Of a stretch of 64,000 nt of DNA, positions 22,401-28,271 are shown in pieces. The position numbers and the translations under genes are program-made. The notes beneath the pieces are model-generated. The model had not been told where the DNA came from. It ran no database searches and saw nothing but the letters and a program-made list of their open reading frames with translations. The first letter of the stretch is position 1; every line of letters starts with the position of its first letter. The DNA is from Mobula hypostoma (lineage: Eukaryota): the NCBI RefSeq assembly GCF_963921235.1, contig NC_086108.1:62622001-62686000 (forward strand), read 5' to 3'.

Positions 22401-22554
22401 CATGAACTGTAATGCCCATTTCGCACCTAAACACAAGGTGAAACTTTTGTGTAATTTCATCATAAAAGGTGGACACTTGGATGAGGTTCTGGAGGACCAA
22501 ACATGCTCATCAGAAGTTATAGCAAAATGAGAAGGCGAGAAAACCATGGGCACA

Positions 22555-22694
22555 AGATTTGGTATATTGCCAAAGACTAGCAAATTTGTGCAGATGTACT
22601 GTAGACAGCATTCTGCCTTGTTGCATCACCTGGAAGCTCCAATGCACAGTAACAAAAGAAGCTGCTAAGGGTTGTAGAATCAGCCAACTCCATC
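22555..22694 (+). mobile_element. Rex1 fragment, left part of an element that resumes at 28594
   Basis: agatgtactgtagacagcattctg...tcagccaactccatc continues as ccatcaagggcacaac at 28594. Confidence 0.65.
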
Positions 22695-22725
22695 CTTTAT
22701 TTGCAAGGAAGCTAATTAATAATTT

Positions 22726-22907
22726 CTCCTACAAAATCCTACCTTGGCGCCTCACCATGGTGTAGGAGTGACACAGGCTGAACATCAGCGAAGTATGGCA
22801 GAGATTCATTCTCTGGCAGGTCTAACCTAGACGTGAAGGTGATGTTCCACCGGGGTACTACTAGACTGGATCTAGTAGTAGGATCGTGGCTAGCTAAGTC
22901 AAGGAGG
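22726..22907 (+). ncRNA. Candidate HDV-like self-cleaving ribozyme at the RTE 5' end
   Basis: P1 ctcctac/gtaggag, P2 ccttggc/gtcaagg, P3 gcc/ggt, L3 tcaccat, P1.1 ca/tg, J4/2 gCtaa, all in HDV order; starts at the first base after the TSD. Confidence 0.75.
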
Positions 22908-23607
22908 TAAGCATGCCTTTGCTACTTTGTAGGTTATGCCACTTCAGGCAAAGGCTGCACCCAACGAGGACGCCGGCAGCAGGGCGTCTGATGGTGTCTG
23001 TGGCAGGTGAATCCAAAAGGGTCAGTGGTACAGCCACCTTGGTGGCACGCGGAGGAACCGGAGTGTTGGTCAACGGATGGCATCACTAGGCTAGTTAGTT
23101 GTCACTGCGGGGAACTTCCTTATCCGCTAAGTCTGTTACACTCCTGTGTACCACTGAGCATCAGATCTGGAAGCCCAGAGAGACTGTATGGTGGGGGCAT
23201 GACACCGTCTGTCTTATTACTGTGCAAGGTGTGTTGGAGTAGAGTTTCTGGATGGTGTGGAAAGCCCTGTGGCGATGGAGCTCATGTGACGGCAGCAGGC
23301 TTGAGGAGCTGGAAGCTGCTAGCATGAACTCTGCACATAGGCGGCTCACATAAGATGGCCGCTACCTTGTTGAGTTGTCTGAGCAACAACAGGTTGAGGC
23401 AGCTATGGTGAGTGTCCGGGCAGCCCTTTTTAGGGAAAGCACTGCCCACCCTGGAAGGGGAAGCCCCTAGAAAAGGTGGGGCAAAGAAAGCTTGCTCAGA
23501 TTTCAACGTAAACAACAGGAATTCTGCAGATGCTGGAAATTCAAGCAACATACATCAAAGTTGCTGGTGAACGCAGCAGGCCAAGCAGCATCTATAGGAA
23601 GAGGCGC

Positions 23608-23643
23608 AGTCGACGTTTCAGGCCGAGACCCTTCGTCAGGACT
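23608..23643 (-). ncRNA. Minimal type I hammerhead ribozyme motif
   Basis: Minus strand reads agtc-CTGACGA-agggtctcggcct-GAAA-cGTC-gact. Confidence 0.85.
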
Positions 23644-24222
23644 AACTGAAGGAAGAGTGAGTAAGGGATTTGAAAGCTGGAGGGGGAGGGGGAGATGCAA
23701 AATGATAGGAGAAGACAGGAGGGGGAGGGATAGAGCCGAGAGCTGGACAGGTGATAGGCAAAAGGGGATACGAGAGGATCATGGGACAGGAGGCCTAGGG
23801 AGAAAGACGGGGGGGGGGTGACCCAGAGGATGGGCAAGAGGTATATTCAGAGGGACAGAGGGAGAAAAAGGAGAGTGAGAGAAAGAATGTGTGCATAAAA
23901 AGGAGTAACAGCTGGGGTACGAGGGGGAGGTGGGGCCTAGCGGAAGTTAGAGAAGTCAATGTTCATGCCATCAGGTTGGAGGCTACCCAGACGGAATATA
24001 AGGTGTTAACGGGATCCCACCACTAAGCACATCTTTCCCTCCCCCCCTCTCTCTGCATTCCGCAGGGATCGCTCCCTACACAACTCCCTTGTCCATTCGT
24101 CCCCCCCATCCCTCCCCACTGATCTCCCTCCTGGCACTTATCCGTGTAAGCGGAACAAGTGCTACACATGCCCTTACACTTCCTCCCTTACCACCATTCA
24201 GGGCCCCAAACAGTCCTTCCAG

Positions 24223-24549
24223 GTGAGGCATCACTTCACCTGTGAGTGGACTGGGGTGATATACTGCGTCTGGTGCTCCCGATGTGGCCTTTTATATATT
24301 GGTGAGACCCGACGCAGACTGGGAGACCGCTTTGCTGAACATCTACGCTCTGTCCGCCAGAGAAAGCAGGATCTCCCAGTGGCCACACATTTTAATTCCA
24401 CATCCCATTCCCATTCTGACATGTCTATCCACGGCCTCCTCTACTGTAAAGATGAAGCCACACTCAGGTTGGAGGAACAACACCTTATATTCCATCTGGG
24501 TAGCCTCCAACCTGATGGCATGAACATTGACTTCTCTAACTTCCGCTAG
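24223..24549 (+). pseudogene. Penelope GIY-YIG endonuclease domain (5'-truncated ORF)
   Basis: GVIYCVWCSRCGLLYIGETRRRLGDRFAEH...EQHLIFHLGSLQPDGMN. Confidence 0.9.
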
Positions 24550-24844
24550 GCCCCACCTCCCCCTCGTACCCCAGCTGTTACTCCTTTTTATGCACACATT
24601 CTTTCTCTCACTCTCCTTTTTCTCCCTCTGTCCCGCTGAATATACCTCTTGCCCATCCTCTGGGTCATCCCCCCCCCCCGTCTTTCTCCCTAGGCCTCCT
24701 GTCCCATGATCCTCTCGTATCCCCTTTTGCCTATCACCTGTCCAGCTCTCGGCTCTATCCCTCCCCCTCCTGTCTTCTCCTATCATTTTGCATCTCCCCC
24801 TCCCCCTCCAGCTTTCAAATCCCTTACTCACTCTTCCTTCAGTT

Positions 24845-24880
24845 AGTCCTGACGAAGGGTCTCGGCCTGAAACGTCGACT
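24845..24880 (+). ncRNA. Minimal type I hammerhead ribozyme motif
   Basis: Stem I agtc/gact; core CTGACGA 24849-24855; stem II agg/cct; GAAA 24869-24872; GTC triplet with predicted cut after 24876. Confidence 0.85.
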
Positions 24881-25011
24881 GCGCCTCTTCCTATAGATGC
24901 TGCTTGGCCTGCTGCGTTCACCAGCAACTTTGATGTATGTTGCTCAGATTTCACCTGGCTGGCTCACCGCGGCCAGCGGGTCTTCACCACTGCAGTAAGA
25001 AGCTTAAGAAG

Positions 25012-28000
25012 ATGAAACTGATTGTTGCCACATGGAATGTGCGAACAATGCTGGATAGCAACTCAAGACTGGAAAGGAGAACTGCTTTGATAGCTAAGGA
25101 ATTGGCAAGATACAACACTGATATTGCTACGCTCCAAGGGACAAGGATTGGAGGACAAGGCCAGATCCAAGAAAATACTCATACTTTCTTTTGGATTGGG
25201 AAAACCAACAAAAGGAGAGATGCAGGTGTGGCCTTCACTGTTTCCAACAAGATTGCTAGCAAATTGCCAACACTTCCGATAGGATCATGCGACTACGTGT
25301 TCCCATTGGAAAGGATCATTTCCTGAGTTTGATCAATGTGTATGCACCAACCATGGCATATTCCGACAAAGACAAGGAGTCCTTCTATCAGGAACTGGCT
25401 GAAGTAACCGATAATGTCCCTAGGGCAGACAAGCTGCTCATCTTGGGAGATTTCAATGCCAGGGTAGGCAAGGATCACAGCACCTATGAAGGTGTCATTG
25501 GCAAATTTGGTAAAGGAAAAAAGAACACCAATGGTGAACTTATACTAAACTTTTGAGCTCAGAGGGAATTGTGTGTTACCAGCACTTTCTTTTGTCAACC
25601 CGAGAAGAACTACTTCACCTGGATGCACCCAAGGTCAAAGCATTTCCACTTGCTTGACTACGTTGCGACTCGCAGAGCAGATATGCCAAAGGTTCTATCG
25701 ACAAAAGCAATACATGGAGCAGAGTGCTCATCTGATCATTACATGGTACGATCACAACTTACTTAAACTGCTGCTGCCAAGGCGAAAAACACCCAGTGAA
25801 GCACCCAAGAAATTGGATGTCAACAAGTTGGCCAGTGAGGAACATCAGAGGAGACTTGTCACAGCATTGACATTATCTCTCCAAGAAGACAAAGACCCTC
25901 TCAATGACCCAAACAATATTGAAGAATGCTGCAAGCAGCTCAAGAAAACCATCCATTCAACTGCAAGTGCGATGCTTGGCCACCCAAAGAGAAAAACTCC
26001 TGACTGATTTCAAGAACAAAATGATTCAATTCAAGAACTGTTGGAGATGAAACAAAGGCTTTATATGTGTCACTCGAAAGAGAACTCTGAAAGAAGCAAA
26101 GCAGCATTTAAGGCCATGAAAGCCAAAGTTCAAAGGGAGATCAGGGCTATGAAGAACAACTGGTGGAATAAGAAAGCAGAAGAACTGCAAGCAATGTCAG
26201 ACAGGAATGACTACCATGGGCTCTTCTCAGGACTGAAAGCTATCTATGGTCCAAGAAGCAATACAGTTGCCCCAGTAAAAACTGCAGATGGGAGCAATCT
26301 ATGCACTGACAGGAAAGACATCATTGAGCGCTCCTGTAACCTTCTAAACCAACAAGGTGCAGCTGACCGCACTGCATGTGAAAGGCTCACAACTAGACCG
26401 GTAAGAGAAGAGCTATGTGGACTCATCACTATGACAGAACTTAACAAGGCTTTAAAAGATACCAGAAGTGGTAAAGCACCCGGGCAAGATGGCATTCCAT
26501 CAGATGTACTGAAGCAAGGTGGTCTTGCTCTGAAGACTGAACTGTTGAACTTATATAATGCTTGTTGGCAGAGTCAATGTCTCCCTCAGGACTTCAAAGA
26601 TGTGCTGATAGTCACCATCTACAAGAAGAAAGGCGACCGTAGTGTTTGTGGAAACCACCGAGGAATCTCCCTTCTGTCCACAGCTGGCAAGTTTATGGCA
26701 AAGATACTGCTCAGCTGGCTCAAGATCGTCTCAGAAGATGTGCTTCCTGAAAGCCAACGTGGCCTTAGGGCTGGAAGAGCAACCACTGACATGATTTTTA
26801 CTTTGAGGCAACTGCAGGAGAAGGCAGTAGAACAGCAGCAAACATTGTACATTGTCTTTGTTGATTTCTCACAAGCATTTGATACGGCGGACAGAGAAAC
26901 ACTCTGGGAAGTGCTCAAAACTTATGACTGTCCAGATAGGCTGGTTACGATGATCAAACTGTTTCCTGAGAGCATGTCTGGCAAAGTATCTATCGGAGGA
27001 GACGTCAGCGAAGCCTTCACCATCAACCACGGGGTAAAACAGGGATGCGCTCTTGCTCCAACTTTGTTCACACCATATCTTGCTGCAGTTTTGGAAATAA
27101 TGGACCATAATTTGGACAAAGGTGTGTACATAGGACTCGCTCAGATGGAAAATTGTTCAACCTGTCAAGACTCAAGGCCTCAACCAAATCAAGAGAGATA
27201 TGTGTCAGAGAGCTTGTGTTTGCAGACGACTCAGCCCTGGTTGCTACTGACGTTAATGTGATTCAAGAAATTGTAGACCGGTTCTCATTTGCTGCCACTC
27301 TTTTTGGCCTAAGAATCAATGTCTCCAAAACTGAACTTCTGTACTAGCCTCCTCCTCTGGGTAGTCCCAGTGAGACCCAACCACCAGTCCTATCGGTCAA
27401 TGGGGTAGTGCTGAAATGTTCTGACTCTTTCACATACTTAGGAAGCGCTGTGACCAACACCAACTCATCAGATCTGGAAGTTGAGAGGAGAATTCAATCA
27501 GCTTCAAAAGTCTTTGGTGCTTTGCAGAAGCGACTTTGGTCTCACCACGACATTAAAATGGCAACCAAGGTCAAAGTGTATAACACAGCTGTTTTACCAT
27601 CTCTGTTTTATTCAACTGAAACGATGATATTGTATCAGAAGCACATCAAGAAATTGACCAAGACACAACACAGGCATTTATGCCAAATATTACACATCAA
27701 GTGGCAAGAGAGGGTACCAGATGTGGAGGTGCTCAAACGTGCTGGGACAGTCAGCGTAGAATCACTCATCACAGCTTCTCAGCTGCGTTGGACTGGTCAC
27801 GTCACAAGAATGAGTGATGATCGTTTACCCGAAGCTGTTTTCTCTGGCGAGCTACATGAAGGAAAGAGGAAGTATGGTGGTCAGAAGCTGCACTACAAGG
27901 ACATGCTCAAGCACCAGATGAAGAACACTGACATGAATGTCAACCCCTGGGAGAAAGATGCTCTGGACAGAAGAAGTTGGCACTGCGTTGTCAAGAAGTC

Positions 28001-28160
28001 AATCCCAGCTATCGAGGAGAAAAGGCAGAAGAAATATGAAGCAGGGCATGAATACAGACATTTGGTGCTAGACCAGTCAAATCACAAATGCAATCGATGT
28101 CAGAGGCCGTGCCGATCCAATGCTGGTCTTGTGGCCCATAAGCGTGTCTGCAGAGACTAA
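25012..28160 (+). pseudogene. RTE ORF: APE endonuclease, reverse transcriptase and C-terminal zinc finger, with several frameshifts and stops
   Basis: ATWNVRTM, NVYAPT, LGDFNARVG, SDHY, GKAPGQDGI, RGISLLS, GVKQGCALAPTLF, FADDSAL, CNRCQRPC...LVAHKRVC. Confidence 0.93.
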
Positions 28161-28271
28161 ACTCTCAGCACAGTCAACATCAAAATCGATGGACAGCCAA
28201 AGAAGAATGAATAATTTGCAAGCACTAGCTCTGATATTTAGTGTTGCTGGGAGTTGTCCATGGTTAGAATC

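What the first reader, a model, noticed from the sequence alone, without database searches (positions are those of the whole stretch)
22726..22907. Candidate HDV-like ribozyme marks the exact 5' end of a full-length RTE LINE
Seen: all elements of the nested double pseudoknot occur in HDV order. P1 is 22726-22732/22762-22768 (7 Watson-Crick pairs). P2 is 22742-22748/22898-22904 (7 pairs, one GU, extendable by cct/agg). P3 is 22749-22751/22759-22761 with L3 TCACCAT. P1.1 is CA/TG. J4/2 is GCTAA with the putative catalytic C at 22894. P1 starts at the first base after the left TSD, where self-cleavage would place the element's 5' end. Established: HDV-like ribozymes process the 5' ends of R2, RTE and other non-LTR retrotransposons in other taxa. 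Inference: this RTE family releases itself from host read-through transcripts. Atypical points are C rather than a purine at +1, a CA/UG P1.1, and A at the L3 position that is usually G (explicable by CpG decay), so this copy may be inactive. I cannot tell whether it has been reported in this lineage.
Basis: partly seen in the sequence, partly recalled or inferred. Interest (0 to 1): 0.9.

Follow-up and report, generated by a model that had tools for sequence, protein, structure and literature searches.

The report
HDV-like ribozyme at RTE start
The first 180 bases of a jumping-gene family in this large vertebrate genome fold like the self-cutting RNA of hepatitis delta virus, placed so that the cut would make the element's exact 5' end; this trick is already known from insect and worm relatives, and this particular copy looks dead.

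Summary
A strict HDV-type descriptor hits the 128 kb of the window (both strands) only at 22726. It hits 0 times in 709 kb of other loci and 2 times in 25 Mb of shuffled sequence.

Base 22726 is the true 5' end of a dispersed family. Alignments of 40 scored copies start at 22717-22735, mostly 22725-22730. Target-site duplications of 10-12 nt abut +1 in 6 copies. None of the 4 full-length copies extends upstream.

The family majority repairs the window copy's defects: G in L3 (22 of 30), a GCC/GGC P3, and an intact P4 base. The window copy carries CpG-decay changes, a nested 1.4-kb Penelope-like insertion and frameshifts, so it is probably inactive.

Short internally deleted derivatives keep the ribozyme.

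Covariation is uninformative. Rfam gives only a sub-threshold HDV hit starting at +1. No RNA reads were available, and catalysis is untested.

HDV-like ribozymes at RTE 5' ends are already published, so this is a new member of a known kind.

The parts
22718..22725 (+). Left target-site duplication AATAATTT of the RTE insertion
   Evidence: The same 8-mer lies at 28210-28217, right after the element's 3' tail.
22726..22907 (+). HDV-like ribozyme fold as a whole; predicted cleavage lies 5' of C22726
   Evidence: Family alignment.
22726..22732 (+). P1 5' strand (ctcctac); +1 is C
   Evidence: 7 Watson-Crick pairs with 22762-22768. 84% of cells are paired over 30 copies, including 5'-truncated ones.
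22733..22737 (+). J1/2 linker (aaaat), if the P2 extension forms
   Evidence: A short J1/2 is typical of the family (PMC4908430, passages read).
22738..22748 (+). P2 5' strand (cct-a-ccttggc, A22741 bulged)
   Evidence: Pairs with 22898-22907. 98.3% of cells are paired in 30 copies.
22749..22751 (+). P3 5' strand (gcc)
   Evidence: Pairs with 22759-22761. The family majority is GCC/GGC; the window has GGT.
22752..22758 (+). L3 loop (tcaccat here, TCACCGT in the majority); A22757 replaces the conserved G
   Evidence: G in 22 of 30 copies. Contigs of related organisms read G.
22759..22761 (+). P3 3' strand (ggt; majority GGC)
22762..22768 (+). P1 3' strand (gtaggag)
22769..22770 (+). P1.1 3' strand (tg), pairing with C22753 and A22754 of L3
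   Evidence: Paired in 29 and 27 of 30 copies.
22771..22773 (+). J1.1/4 (aca)
22774..22893 (+). P4 domain of 120 nt. A 6-bp base helix (22774-22779 with 22888-22893) carries two arms. In the window copy, A22775 breaks one pair and T22779 makes a G-U.
   Evidence: Folds of the natural copy L009 and of the window copy. Pair counts.
22894..22897 (+). J4/2 (ctaa), with the putative catalytic C22894
   Evidence: C in 29 of 30 copies and CTAA in 25 of 30.
22898..22907 (+). P2 3' strand (gtcaagg + agg)
22908..23505 (+). Rest of the RTE 5' untranslated region, up to the nested insertion
   Evidence: Copies L002, L014 and L015 run from 23505 directly into 24940.
23506..24939 (.). Nested Penelope-like fold-back insertion; not part of the RTE. 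It has a 14-bp duplication TTGCTCAGATTTCA at 23492-23505 and 24940-24953.
   Evidence: Inverted repeats, GIY-YIG Pfam hit, hammerhead-type cores, absence from other copies, sequence.
24940..28160 (+). RTE coding region (AP endonuclease, then reverse transcriptase), broken into at least 5 frames in this copy
   Evidence: ORF list, Pfam Exo_endo_phos and RVT_1, frames, 1,045-aa relatives.
28161..28209 (+). RTE 3' untranslated tail ending in a GAA-type repeat
   Evidence: The same tail ends the short copies.
28210..28217 (+). Right target-site duplication AATAATTT

Best explanation
The first ~182 nt of this RTE-type LINE family encode an HDV-like (nested double-pseudoknot) self-cleaving ribozyme.

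Proposed mechanism, all inferred:
- The element is transcribed as part of a longer host or neighbouring transcript.
- The RNA folds into P1, P1.1, P2, P3 and a large three-armed P4.
- The cytosine of J4/2 (C22894 here) catalyses scission just 5' of the first P1 nucleotide.
- This releases an RTE RNA that starts at C+1. Reverse transcription to that end then gives DNA copies that begin at exactly this base.

Shown here: the fold, its position, and the family's sharp 5' end.

The active form is the family-majority sequence. The window copy has lost the conserved L3 guanine and a P4 pair through CpG and other decay. It also carries a nested insertion and frameshifts, so it is a dead copy.

Short internally deleted, non-autonomous derivatives keep the same 5' module plus the 3' tail. 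They presumably use the same processing step.
For: 1. All helices and junctions lie in HDV order at the stated coordinates.
2. The strict descriptor hits the window only at 22726. It hits 0 times in 709 kb of other loci and 2 times in 25 Mb of shuffles.
3. The position is right:
- 40 of 40 scored genomic matches start at query 118-136, which is window 22717-22735; most start at 126-131.
- Upstream flanks are unrelated.
- Target-site duplications of 10-12 nt end immediately before +1 in L003, L009, L011, L018, L023 and L024. That is 6 of the 20 short copies the script could scan.
- The window's own 8-nt duplication also abuts +1.
4. The majority sequence is a better ribozyme than the window copy. 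L3 is UCACCGU, with U at position 1 and G at position 6, the spacing of the HDV U-G reverse wobble as I recall it. P3 is GCC/GGC, the P4 base has 6 bp, and J4/2 is CUAA. G is present in 22 of 30 copies and the catalytic C in 29 of 30.
5. In the natural majority-type copy L009, the nested parts of the fold (P2+P3+P4, -63.2 kcal/mol) lie within 2 kcal/mol of the MFE (-65.2). The MFE itself contains P3 and the whole P4 domain.
6. Among 4,227 Rfam models, the best hit on L009 is an HDV ribozyme family (RF02682). It starts exactly at +1 with P1 and P3 in register, but at only 15 bits against a cut-off of 44.
7. The 31-nt core occurs 69 times with up to 3 mismatches in the genome, against 0 for the reversed control.
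8. Contigs from other organisms hold the element at 85-95% identity. Similarity starts at 22727-22730 and they carry the majority letters.
9. Precedent in print:
- HDV-like ribozymes cleave at the 5' junction of RTE, R4 and L1 elements (PMC3774820 discussion, citing Ruminski 2011).
- L1TcRz cleaves before C1, and its non-autonomous partner NARTc shares the ribozyme (PMC3185411).
- Variable 5' junctions are typical when cleavage is at the element's own 5' end (PMC3774820). Here some copies lack 1-9 nt, L027 has 4 extra nt, and L016 and L019 have partial duplications.
Against: - There is no covariation. On 30 copies the covariation score is 0.076 against 0.080 in shuffles, and 475 of 500 shuffles are at least as high. 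All pairs come from a single master sequence.
- No Rfam family reaches its gathering score in the window, in the 451-nt region at E up to 10, or in L009.
- +1 is C in a C-G pair, not the usual G-U (the G-U norm is recalled, not from a call). One P1.1 pair is A-U.
- Only 5 of 30 copies still satisfy the strict descriptor up to J4/2, and only 3 of 30 also pass the P4 test.
- The only close relative of the window copy (L002, 97-98% alike, independent flanks) shares the L3 A, the G-U in P3 and the broken P4 pair. A master with a weakened core may therefore have transposed at least twice.
- In contigs of two other organisms, a high-depth variant matches only from 22762 onward. Its upstream sequence cannot form P3. 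A derivative lacking the 5' half of the fold therefore exists.
- A second, younger RTE-like family in the same genome shows no such fold in the 1.5 kb upstream of its ORF.
- 70 metagenomic RTE loci also show no convincing fold.
- A sharp 5' end is equally expected from an internal promoter.
Confidence: 0.77

Rival explanations
1. The fold is a coincidence. The sharp 5' end is set by an internal RNA polymerase II or III promoter that starts transcription at C22726, as in many LINEs, and no cleavage occurs.
For: - No covariation and no Rfam hit at threshold.
- +1 is C, and P1.1 has an A-U pair.
- L1Tc shows that a start site and a ribozyme site can coincide (PMC3185411).
- Other RTE families examined here lack the fold.
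Against: - Seven independent features fall in the right order and spacing at one predetermined base. The expectation is about 8e-8 per position even without the P4 and L3 constraints.
- The family majority also restores the L3 G, the P3 pair and the P4 base. Chance would not favour that.
- The best Rfam hit, though weak, is an HDV model starting at +1.
Confidence: 0.09
2. The pseudoknotted structure is real and selected, but it is not catalytic in this family. It would serve as a structured 5' module, for example a binding site for the element's protein, a translation-initiation platform or 5' end protection. The 5' end would be made by other means.
For: - R2 protein binds a pseudoknot within its ribozyme, and HDV-like folds are proposed to promote translation (PMC6765202, section on retrotransposons).
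- The short derivatives keep about 510 nt, far more than the 182-nt fold.
- A 38-nt hairpin just after the fold is shared with a distant RTE locus, L088.
- The L001/L002 lineage transposed with A in L3.
Against: - The residues kept in the majority are those tied to catalysis, not only to shape: the J4/2 C followed by UAA, and the L3 U and G.
- The first P1 base coincides with the first base of the element. A purely structural role does not require that.
Confidence: 0.12

Closest known systems
HDV-like ribozymes of RTE and baggins retrotransposons (Ruminski, Webb, Riccitelli, Luptak 2011, J Biol Chem; the drz-Agam-2 family of mosquito)
   Same: An HDV-type double pseudoknot sits at the very 5' end of an RTE-type LINE, with cleavage at the element's 5' junction. 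P2 is extended (10 bp here, 12 bp in Agam-2 per PMC4908430). The proposed role is release from co-transcripts.
   Different: The original paper is not held, so I know it only through PMC3774820, PMC6765202 and PMC4908430. Here the large peripheral domain is in P4 (120 nt, branched), not in J1/2. +1 is C. Rfam's drz-Agam models do not match.
R2 retrotransposon ribozyme (Eickbush and Eickbush; PMC3774820)
   Same: It shares the fold, the conserved L3 G and the catalytic C. P4 is very variable in R2 too. Variable 5' junctions occur when cleavage is at the element's own end. Dead copies lose the L3 G, as in the sow bug and the Nasonia G-to-A variant.
   Different: R2 is a different clade, site-specific in 28S rDNA and co-transcribed by Pol I, and it often cleaves upstream in 28S. 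This element is dispersed, with ordinary target-site duplications.
L1TcRz of Trypanosoma cruzi L1Tc and its non-autonomous partner NARTc (PMC3185411)
   Same: It is an active HDV-like ribozyme whose product starts at C1. The ribozyme-bearing 5' module is shared by an autonomous LINE and a short non-autonomous element.
   Different: L1TcRz is 77 nt, compact, from a different LINE clade and a protist host, and it doubles as an internal promoter.
Twister-variant ribozymes at 5' ends of RTE-superfamily elements (PMC8501958; remark in PMC7761336)
   Same: They have the same position and presumed job in RTE-clade elements.
   Different: They belong to a different ribozyme class. Nothing twister-like was reported by Rfam here.
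Rfam RF02682, HDV ribozyme of Faecalibacterium prausnitzii
   Same: It is the best-scoring Rfam model on the majority-type copy. The alignment starts at +1 with P1, P3 and L3 in register.
   Different: It scores 15 bits against a gathering score of 44, and the 3' half is misaligned because P4 here is about 100 nt longer. This is not a database-level match.

Membership tests
HDV-like self-cleaving ribozymes | Nested double pseudoknot: strands in the order P1, P2, P3, L3, P3', P1', P1.1, P4, J4/2, P2', with a 6-7 bp P1, a P2 of about 7 bp and a 3-bp P3 | tested here: met
   (coordinates). The descriptor matches at 22726 only. The definition is taken from PMC4908430 and PMC3774820 (passages read).
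HDV-like self-cleaving ribozymes | Catalytic cytosine in J4/2, directly after P4 and a few nucleotides before P2' | tested here: met
   C22894 lies in CUAA. C is present in 29 of 30 copies and CTAA in 25 of 30.
HDV-like self-cleaving ribozymes | Conserved G in L3 that forms a reverse wobble with an L3 U | tested here: inconclusive
   Met by the family majority: UCACCGU in 17 of 30 copies and G in 22 of 30. Not met by the window copy, which has A22757. A G-to-A change abolished cleavage in Nasonia R2 (PMC3774820).
HDV-like self-cleaving ribozymes | Two-pair P1.1 between L3 and the nucleotides after P1' | tested here: met
   C-G and A-U pairs, present in 29 and 27 of 30 copies. The A-U pair is weaker than the usual G-C pairs (recalled, not from a call).
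HDV-like self-cleaving ribozymes | Cleavage at the first nucleotide of P1, so the product starts at +1 | tested here: met
   This is indirect. The DNA copies begin at the first P1 base and target-site duplications abut it. No RNA ends were seen.
HDV-like self-cleaving ribozymes | Mg2+-dependent self-scission giving a 5'-OH product, abolished by mutating the catalytic C | not testable with these tools
No raw RNA reads were on offer.
HDV-like self-cleaving ribozymes | Compensatory base changes supporting the helices | tested here: inconclusive
   There are 3 pairs with double changes against 4.4 in shuffles, and the covariation score is not above shuffles. The copies descend from one master and decay neutrally. 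More distant relatives could not be obtained.
HDV-like self-cleaving ribozymes | Match to a curated Rfam HDV-type covariance model at its gathering score | tested here: not met
   There are no hits at gathering score. The best sub-threshold hit is RF02682 at 15 bits against 44. The long P4 probably costs most of the score.
RTE-clade non-LTR retrotransposons | Single long ORF with an N-terminal AP endonuclease and a reverse transcriptase, about 1,000 aa; no poly(A); short 3' tail with a simple repeat | tested here: met
   Pfam Exo_endo_phos and RVT_1. Relatives are 1,042-1,062 aa with the same domains. The tail is of GAA type. The list of clade features is recalled. Phylogenetic placement among named clades was not tested.

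The most novel reading that the evidence does not exclude
A vertebrate (apparently cartilaginous-fish) RTE lineage and a swarm of about 0.55-kb internally deleted parasites of it are both processed by an active HDV-like ribozyme of unusual build: C at +1, an A-U pair in P1.1 and a 120-nt three-armed P4. The ribozyme-bearing 5' head would then be a required cis-element of a LINE/SINE-like pair in a vertebrate, kept across several species.
Probability: 0.5. Interest if true: 0.55.

Novelty: new member of a known kind. Interest (0 to 1): 0.45.

Why it matters
- It gives a mechanism for how this abundant promoter-less LINE family and its short derivatives obtain a defined 5' end.
- It extends RTE-borne HDV-like ribozymes to a vertebrate lineage. 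My two searches found no paper reporting one there.
- It supplies a natural variant with a very large P4 and C at +1 that current Rfam models miss. This is a concrete case for improving ribozyme annotation of large repeat-rich genomes.
- For genome annotators it marks the true start of the family.

Tried and rejected
- **Rfam.** Scans of the window, of the region at E up to 10 and of 20 metagenomic RTE loci found nothing at threshold.
- **Covariation on 30 copies** gave no signal. I read this as uninformative, not negative.
- **Covariance model R1** could not be run on the window's genome because the tool refuses models there. I did not pursue that question by another route.
- **RNA evidence.** No RNA holder was listed. 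Only contigs could be laid, so no starts, ends or expression could be read.
- **A second RTE-like family** in the same genome shows no HDV-like fold in the 1.5 kb upstream of its ORF under a relaxed descriptor. Its apparent 5' end carries a captured host exon instead.
- **70 metagenomic RTE loci**, scanned with the relaxed descriptor, gave background-level hits on both strands. The one tidy hit (L082:958-1229) takes its J4/2 and P2' from the conserved coding sequence at the ORF start, so I rejected it.
- **nhmmer** with the family alignment against those loci found nothing below E = 4.
- **Ruminski 2011** could not be read, so I cannot say which host species its RTE ribozymes came from.
- **Literature.** A search for HDV-like + ribozyme + shark gave 2 papers, neither on RTE ribozymes. 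A looser search was swamped by fish papers.

Full report
**Observation**

- P1 is 22726-22732 with 22762-22768, 7 Watson-Crick pairs.
- P2 is 22742-22748 with 22898-22904, with one G-U. It extends by 22738-22740 with 22905-22907 over a bulged A.
- P3 is 22749-22751 with 22759-22761.
- L3 is tcaccat.
- P1.1 is C22753-G22770 and A22754-U22769.
- C22894 lies in J4/2.

I wrote a descriptor requiring a 7-bp P1, 3-bp P3, 7-nt L3, P1.1, a 7-bp P2 and J4/2 of the form C-N-R-A.
- It matches the window on both strands only at 22726.
- It matches nothing in 709,164 bases of unrelated loci.
- It matches twice in 24.96 Mb of dinucleotide shuffles of the window.

At one predetermined base, that expectation is of the order of 1e-7.

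**What the element is**

The window lies in a 3.48-Gb genome.

A search with 22600-23100 gave 440 candidates, of which 40 were scored. All 40 alignments begin at query 118-136, mostly 126-131. That corresponds to window 22725-22730.

I compared the window with 30 fetched copies.
- Three copies (L002, L014, L015) run from 23505 directly into 24940. Window 23506-24939 is therefore a later insertion.
- That insertion has inverted repeats, a GIY-YIG ORF, two hammerhead-type cores and a 14-bp duplication. It is a Penelope-like fold-back.
- With the insertion removed, the RTE has an untranslated leader of about 0.8 kb, then an AP-endonuclease and reverse-transcriptase ORF. Its relatives are 1,042-1,062 aa. 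It ends in a GAA-type tail.
- The window copy's ORF is split over at least five frames.

So the copy is full-length in extent, but dead.

**The 5' end**

- In the 30-copy alignment the sequence upstream of +1 is unrelated between copies.
- 18 copies start at or within a base of CTCCTAC. The others lack 1-9 nt.
- L016 and L019 carry partial duplications of the first ~20 nt. L027 has 4 extra bases.
- A script found target-site duplications of 10-12 nt ending immediately before +1 in 6 of the 20 short copies it could scan: L003, L009, L011, L018, L023 and L024.
- The window's own 8-nt duplication does the same.

This kind of ragged but anchored 5' junction is what is described for R2 elements whose ribozyme cuts at the element's own end (PMC3774820, abstract and discussion passages).

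**The family majority is a better ribozyme than the window copy**

The most common letters give the following.
- L3 is UCACCGU in 17 of 30 copies, and G is present in 22 of 30.
- P3 is GCC/GGC.
- The P4 base helix has 6 bp.
- J1.1/4 is ACA.
- J4/2 is CUAA in 25 of 30 copies, and the cytosine is present in 29 of 30.

A22775 breaks a P4 pair.

Contigs from other organisms also read G, C and T at these three places.

The L3 guanine is described as highly conserved. A G-to-A change abolished cleavage in a Nasonia R2 ribozyme, and a sow-bug R2 lacking it was inactive (PMC3774820, section on secondary structures).

Energetically, the nested parts of the fold in the natural copy L009 lie within 2 kcal/mol of the MFE. 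That MFE already contains P3 and the whole P4 domain. In the window copy they are 14 kcal/mol worse.

C at +1 is not disqualifying. The active L1TcRz product starts at C1 (PMC3185411, cleavage-site section).

**Short derivatives**

About 20 of the 30 copies are 0.55-0.6 kb forms. They join roughly 23229-23261 to roughly 28155-28175, and the exact junctions vary. Others join 23245 to 26967 (L029) or 23167 to 27696 (L030).

All of them keep the ribozyme. This is partly by construction, because my query was the 5' end.

The arrangement parallels L1Tc and NARTc, which share the ribozyme module (PMC3185411).

**Evidence that did not help, or that cuts the other way**

- Covariation is absent: the score is 0.076 against 0.080 in shuffles. 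All copies derive from one master, so this neither supports nor refutes the fold.
- Rfam finds nothing at threshold. On L009 the top hit of all families is an HDV ribozyme model beginning exactly at +1, but at 15 bits against a cut-off of 44.
- The only close relative of the window copy (L002) shares its three core changes. A weakened master may therefore have moved.
- Two other organisms hold a high-depth variant that matches only from 22762 on. Its upstream sequence cannot form P3. This is unexplained.
- A second, young RTE-like family in this genome and 70 metagenomic RTE loci show no convincing HDV-like fold. The feature is therefore lineage-specific, or my descriptor is too narrow.
- No RNA reads were available.

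**Mechanism and comparison with what is known**

The most likely reading, at about 0.77, is a genuine HDV-like ribozyme that trims read-through transcripts to give the RTE RNA its 5' end.

The rivals are:
- a chance fold at a promoter-defined start, at about 0.09;
- a real but non-catalytic structured head, at about 0.12.

HDV-like ribozymes at RTE 5' junctions are already reported. PMC3774820 and PMC6765202 both cite Ruminski 2011, which I could not read.

The library search for HDV-like + ribozyme + shark gave two papers, neither about RTE ribozymes.

I therefore class this as a new member of a known kind. It has some unusual details: a 120-nt branched P4, C at +1, and an A-U pair in P1.1.

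Noticed in passing
window 23506-24939: A Penelope-like fold-back insertion is nested in the RTE leader. It has inverted arms at 23536-24007 and 24479-24952, a GIY-YIG ORF at 24223-24549, and two identical hammerhead-type cores at 23612-23639 (-) and 24849-24876 (+). A 14-bp target duplication lies at 23492-23505 and 24940-24953. The same element interrupts copies L017, L021 and L026.
   Followed up: partly
loci L003-L030 (for example L011, L013, L022, L029, L030); window equivalents 23167-23261 joined to 26967-28175: There is a swarm of internally deleted RTE derivatives with many different deletion junctions. Most are about 0.55-0.6 kb, and each has its own target-site duplication. The junctions differ by a few bases or by A/T runs, which suggests repeated formation or a decaying A-rich linker.
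   Followed up: partly
window 22918-22957; L088:542-579: A 38-nt hairpin-forming motif lies directly after the ribozyme. It is 87% identical to the leader of a distant metagenomic RTE whose ORF is about 45% identical in protein. That element's upstream part does not align with the ribozyme.
   Followed up: partly
window 23261-23348 and 23409-23495: Two leader blocks just upstream of the ORF are 70-80% identical in nucleotides to the same position in at least 15 metagenomic RTE loci and in the genome's second RTE-like family. They may be an upstream or extended coding region, or a conserved RNA element.
   Followed up: no
L031:348-528 and L034:351-531 (G000 C50:39.67 Mb and C2:111.32 Mb): A second RTE-like family has copies about 96% alike, some with uninterrupted frames of about 1,129 aa. 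In two copies it begins with a glyoxalase-fold exon fragment resembling methylmalonyl-CoA epimerase (Pfam Glyoxalase_4, E = 8e-8). This looks like a captured host exon at the 5' end.
   Followed up: partly
window 22762 onward, in contigs of runs X3 and X5: In two other organisms, a high-depth contig matches the element only from 22762 on. A palindromic CTAACTAGTTAG-containing sequence lies upstream, there are small deletions in the P2 3' strand, and a different internal junction joins 23256 to about 28140.
   Followed up: no
window 22552-22694: The stretch 32 nt upstream of the RTE is itself a repeat that is abundant in the contigs of all four laid runs. The RTE therefore sits next to, or inside, another element.
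   Followed up: no
base -1 of copies starting at +1: The base before +1 is A in 10 of the 18 copies that start at +1. In several of these the A belongs to the target-site duplication, so this looks like a target preference and not part of the element.
   Followed up: partly
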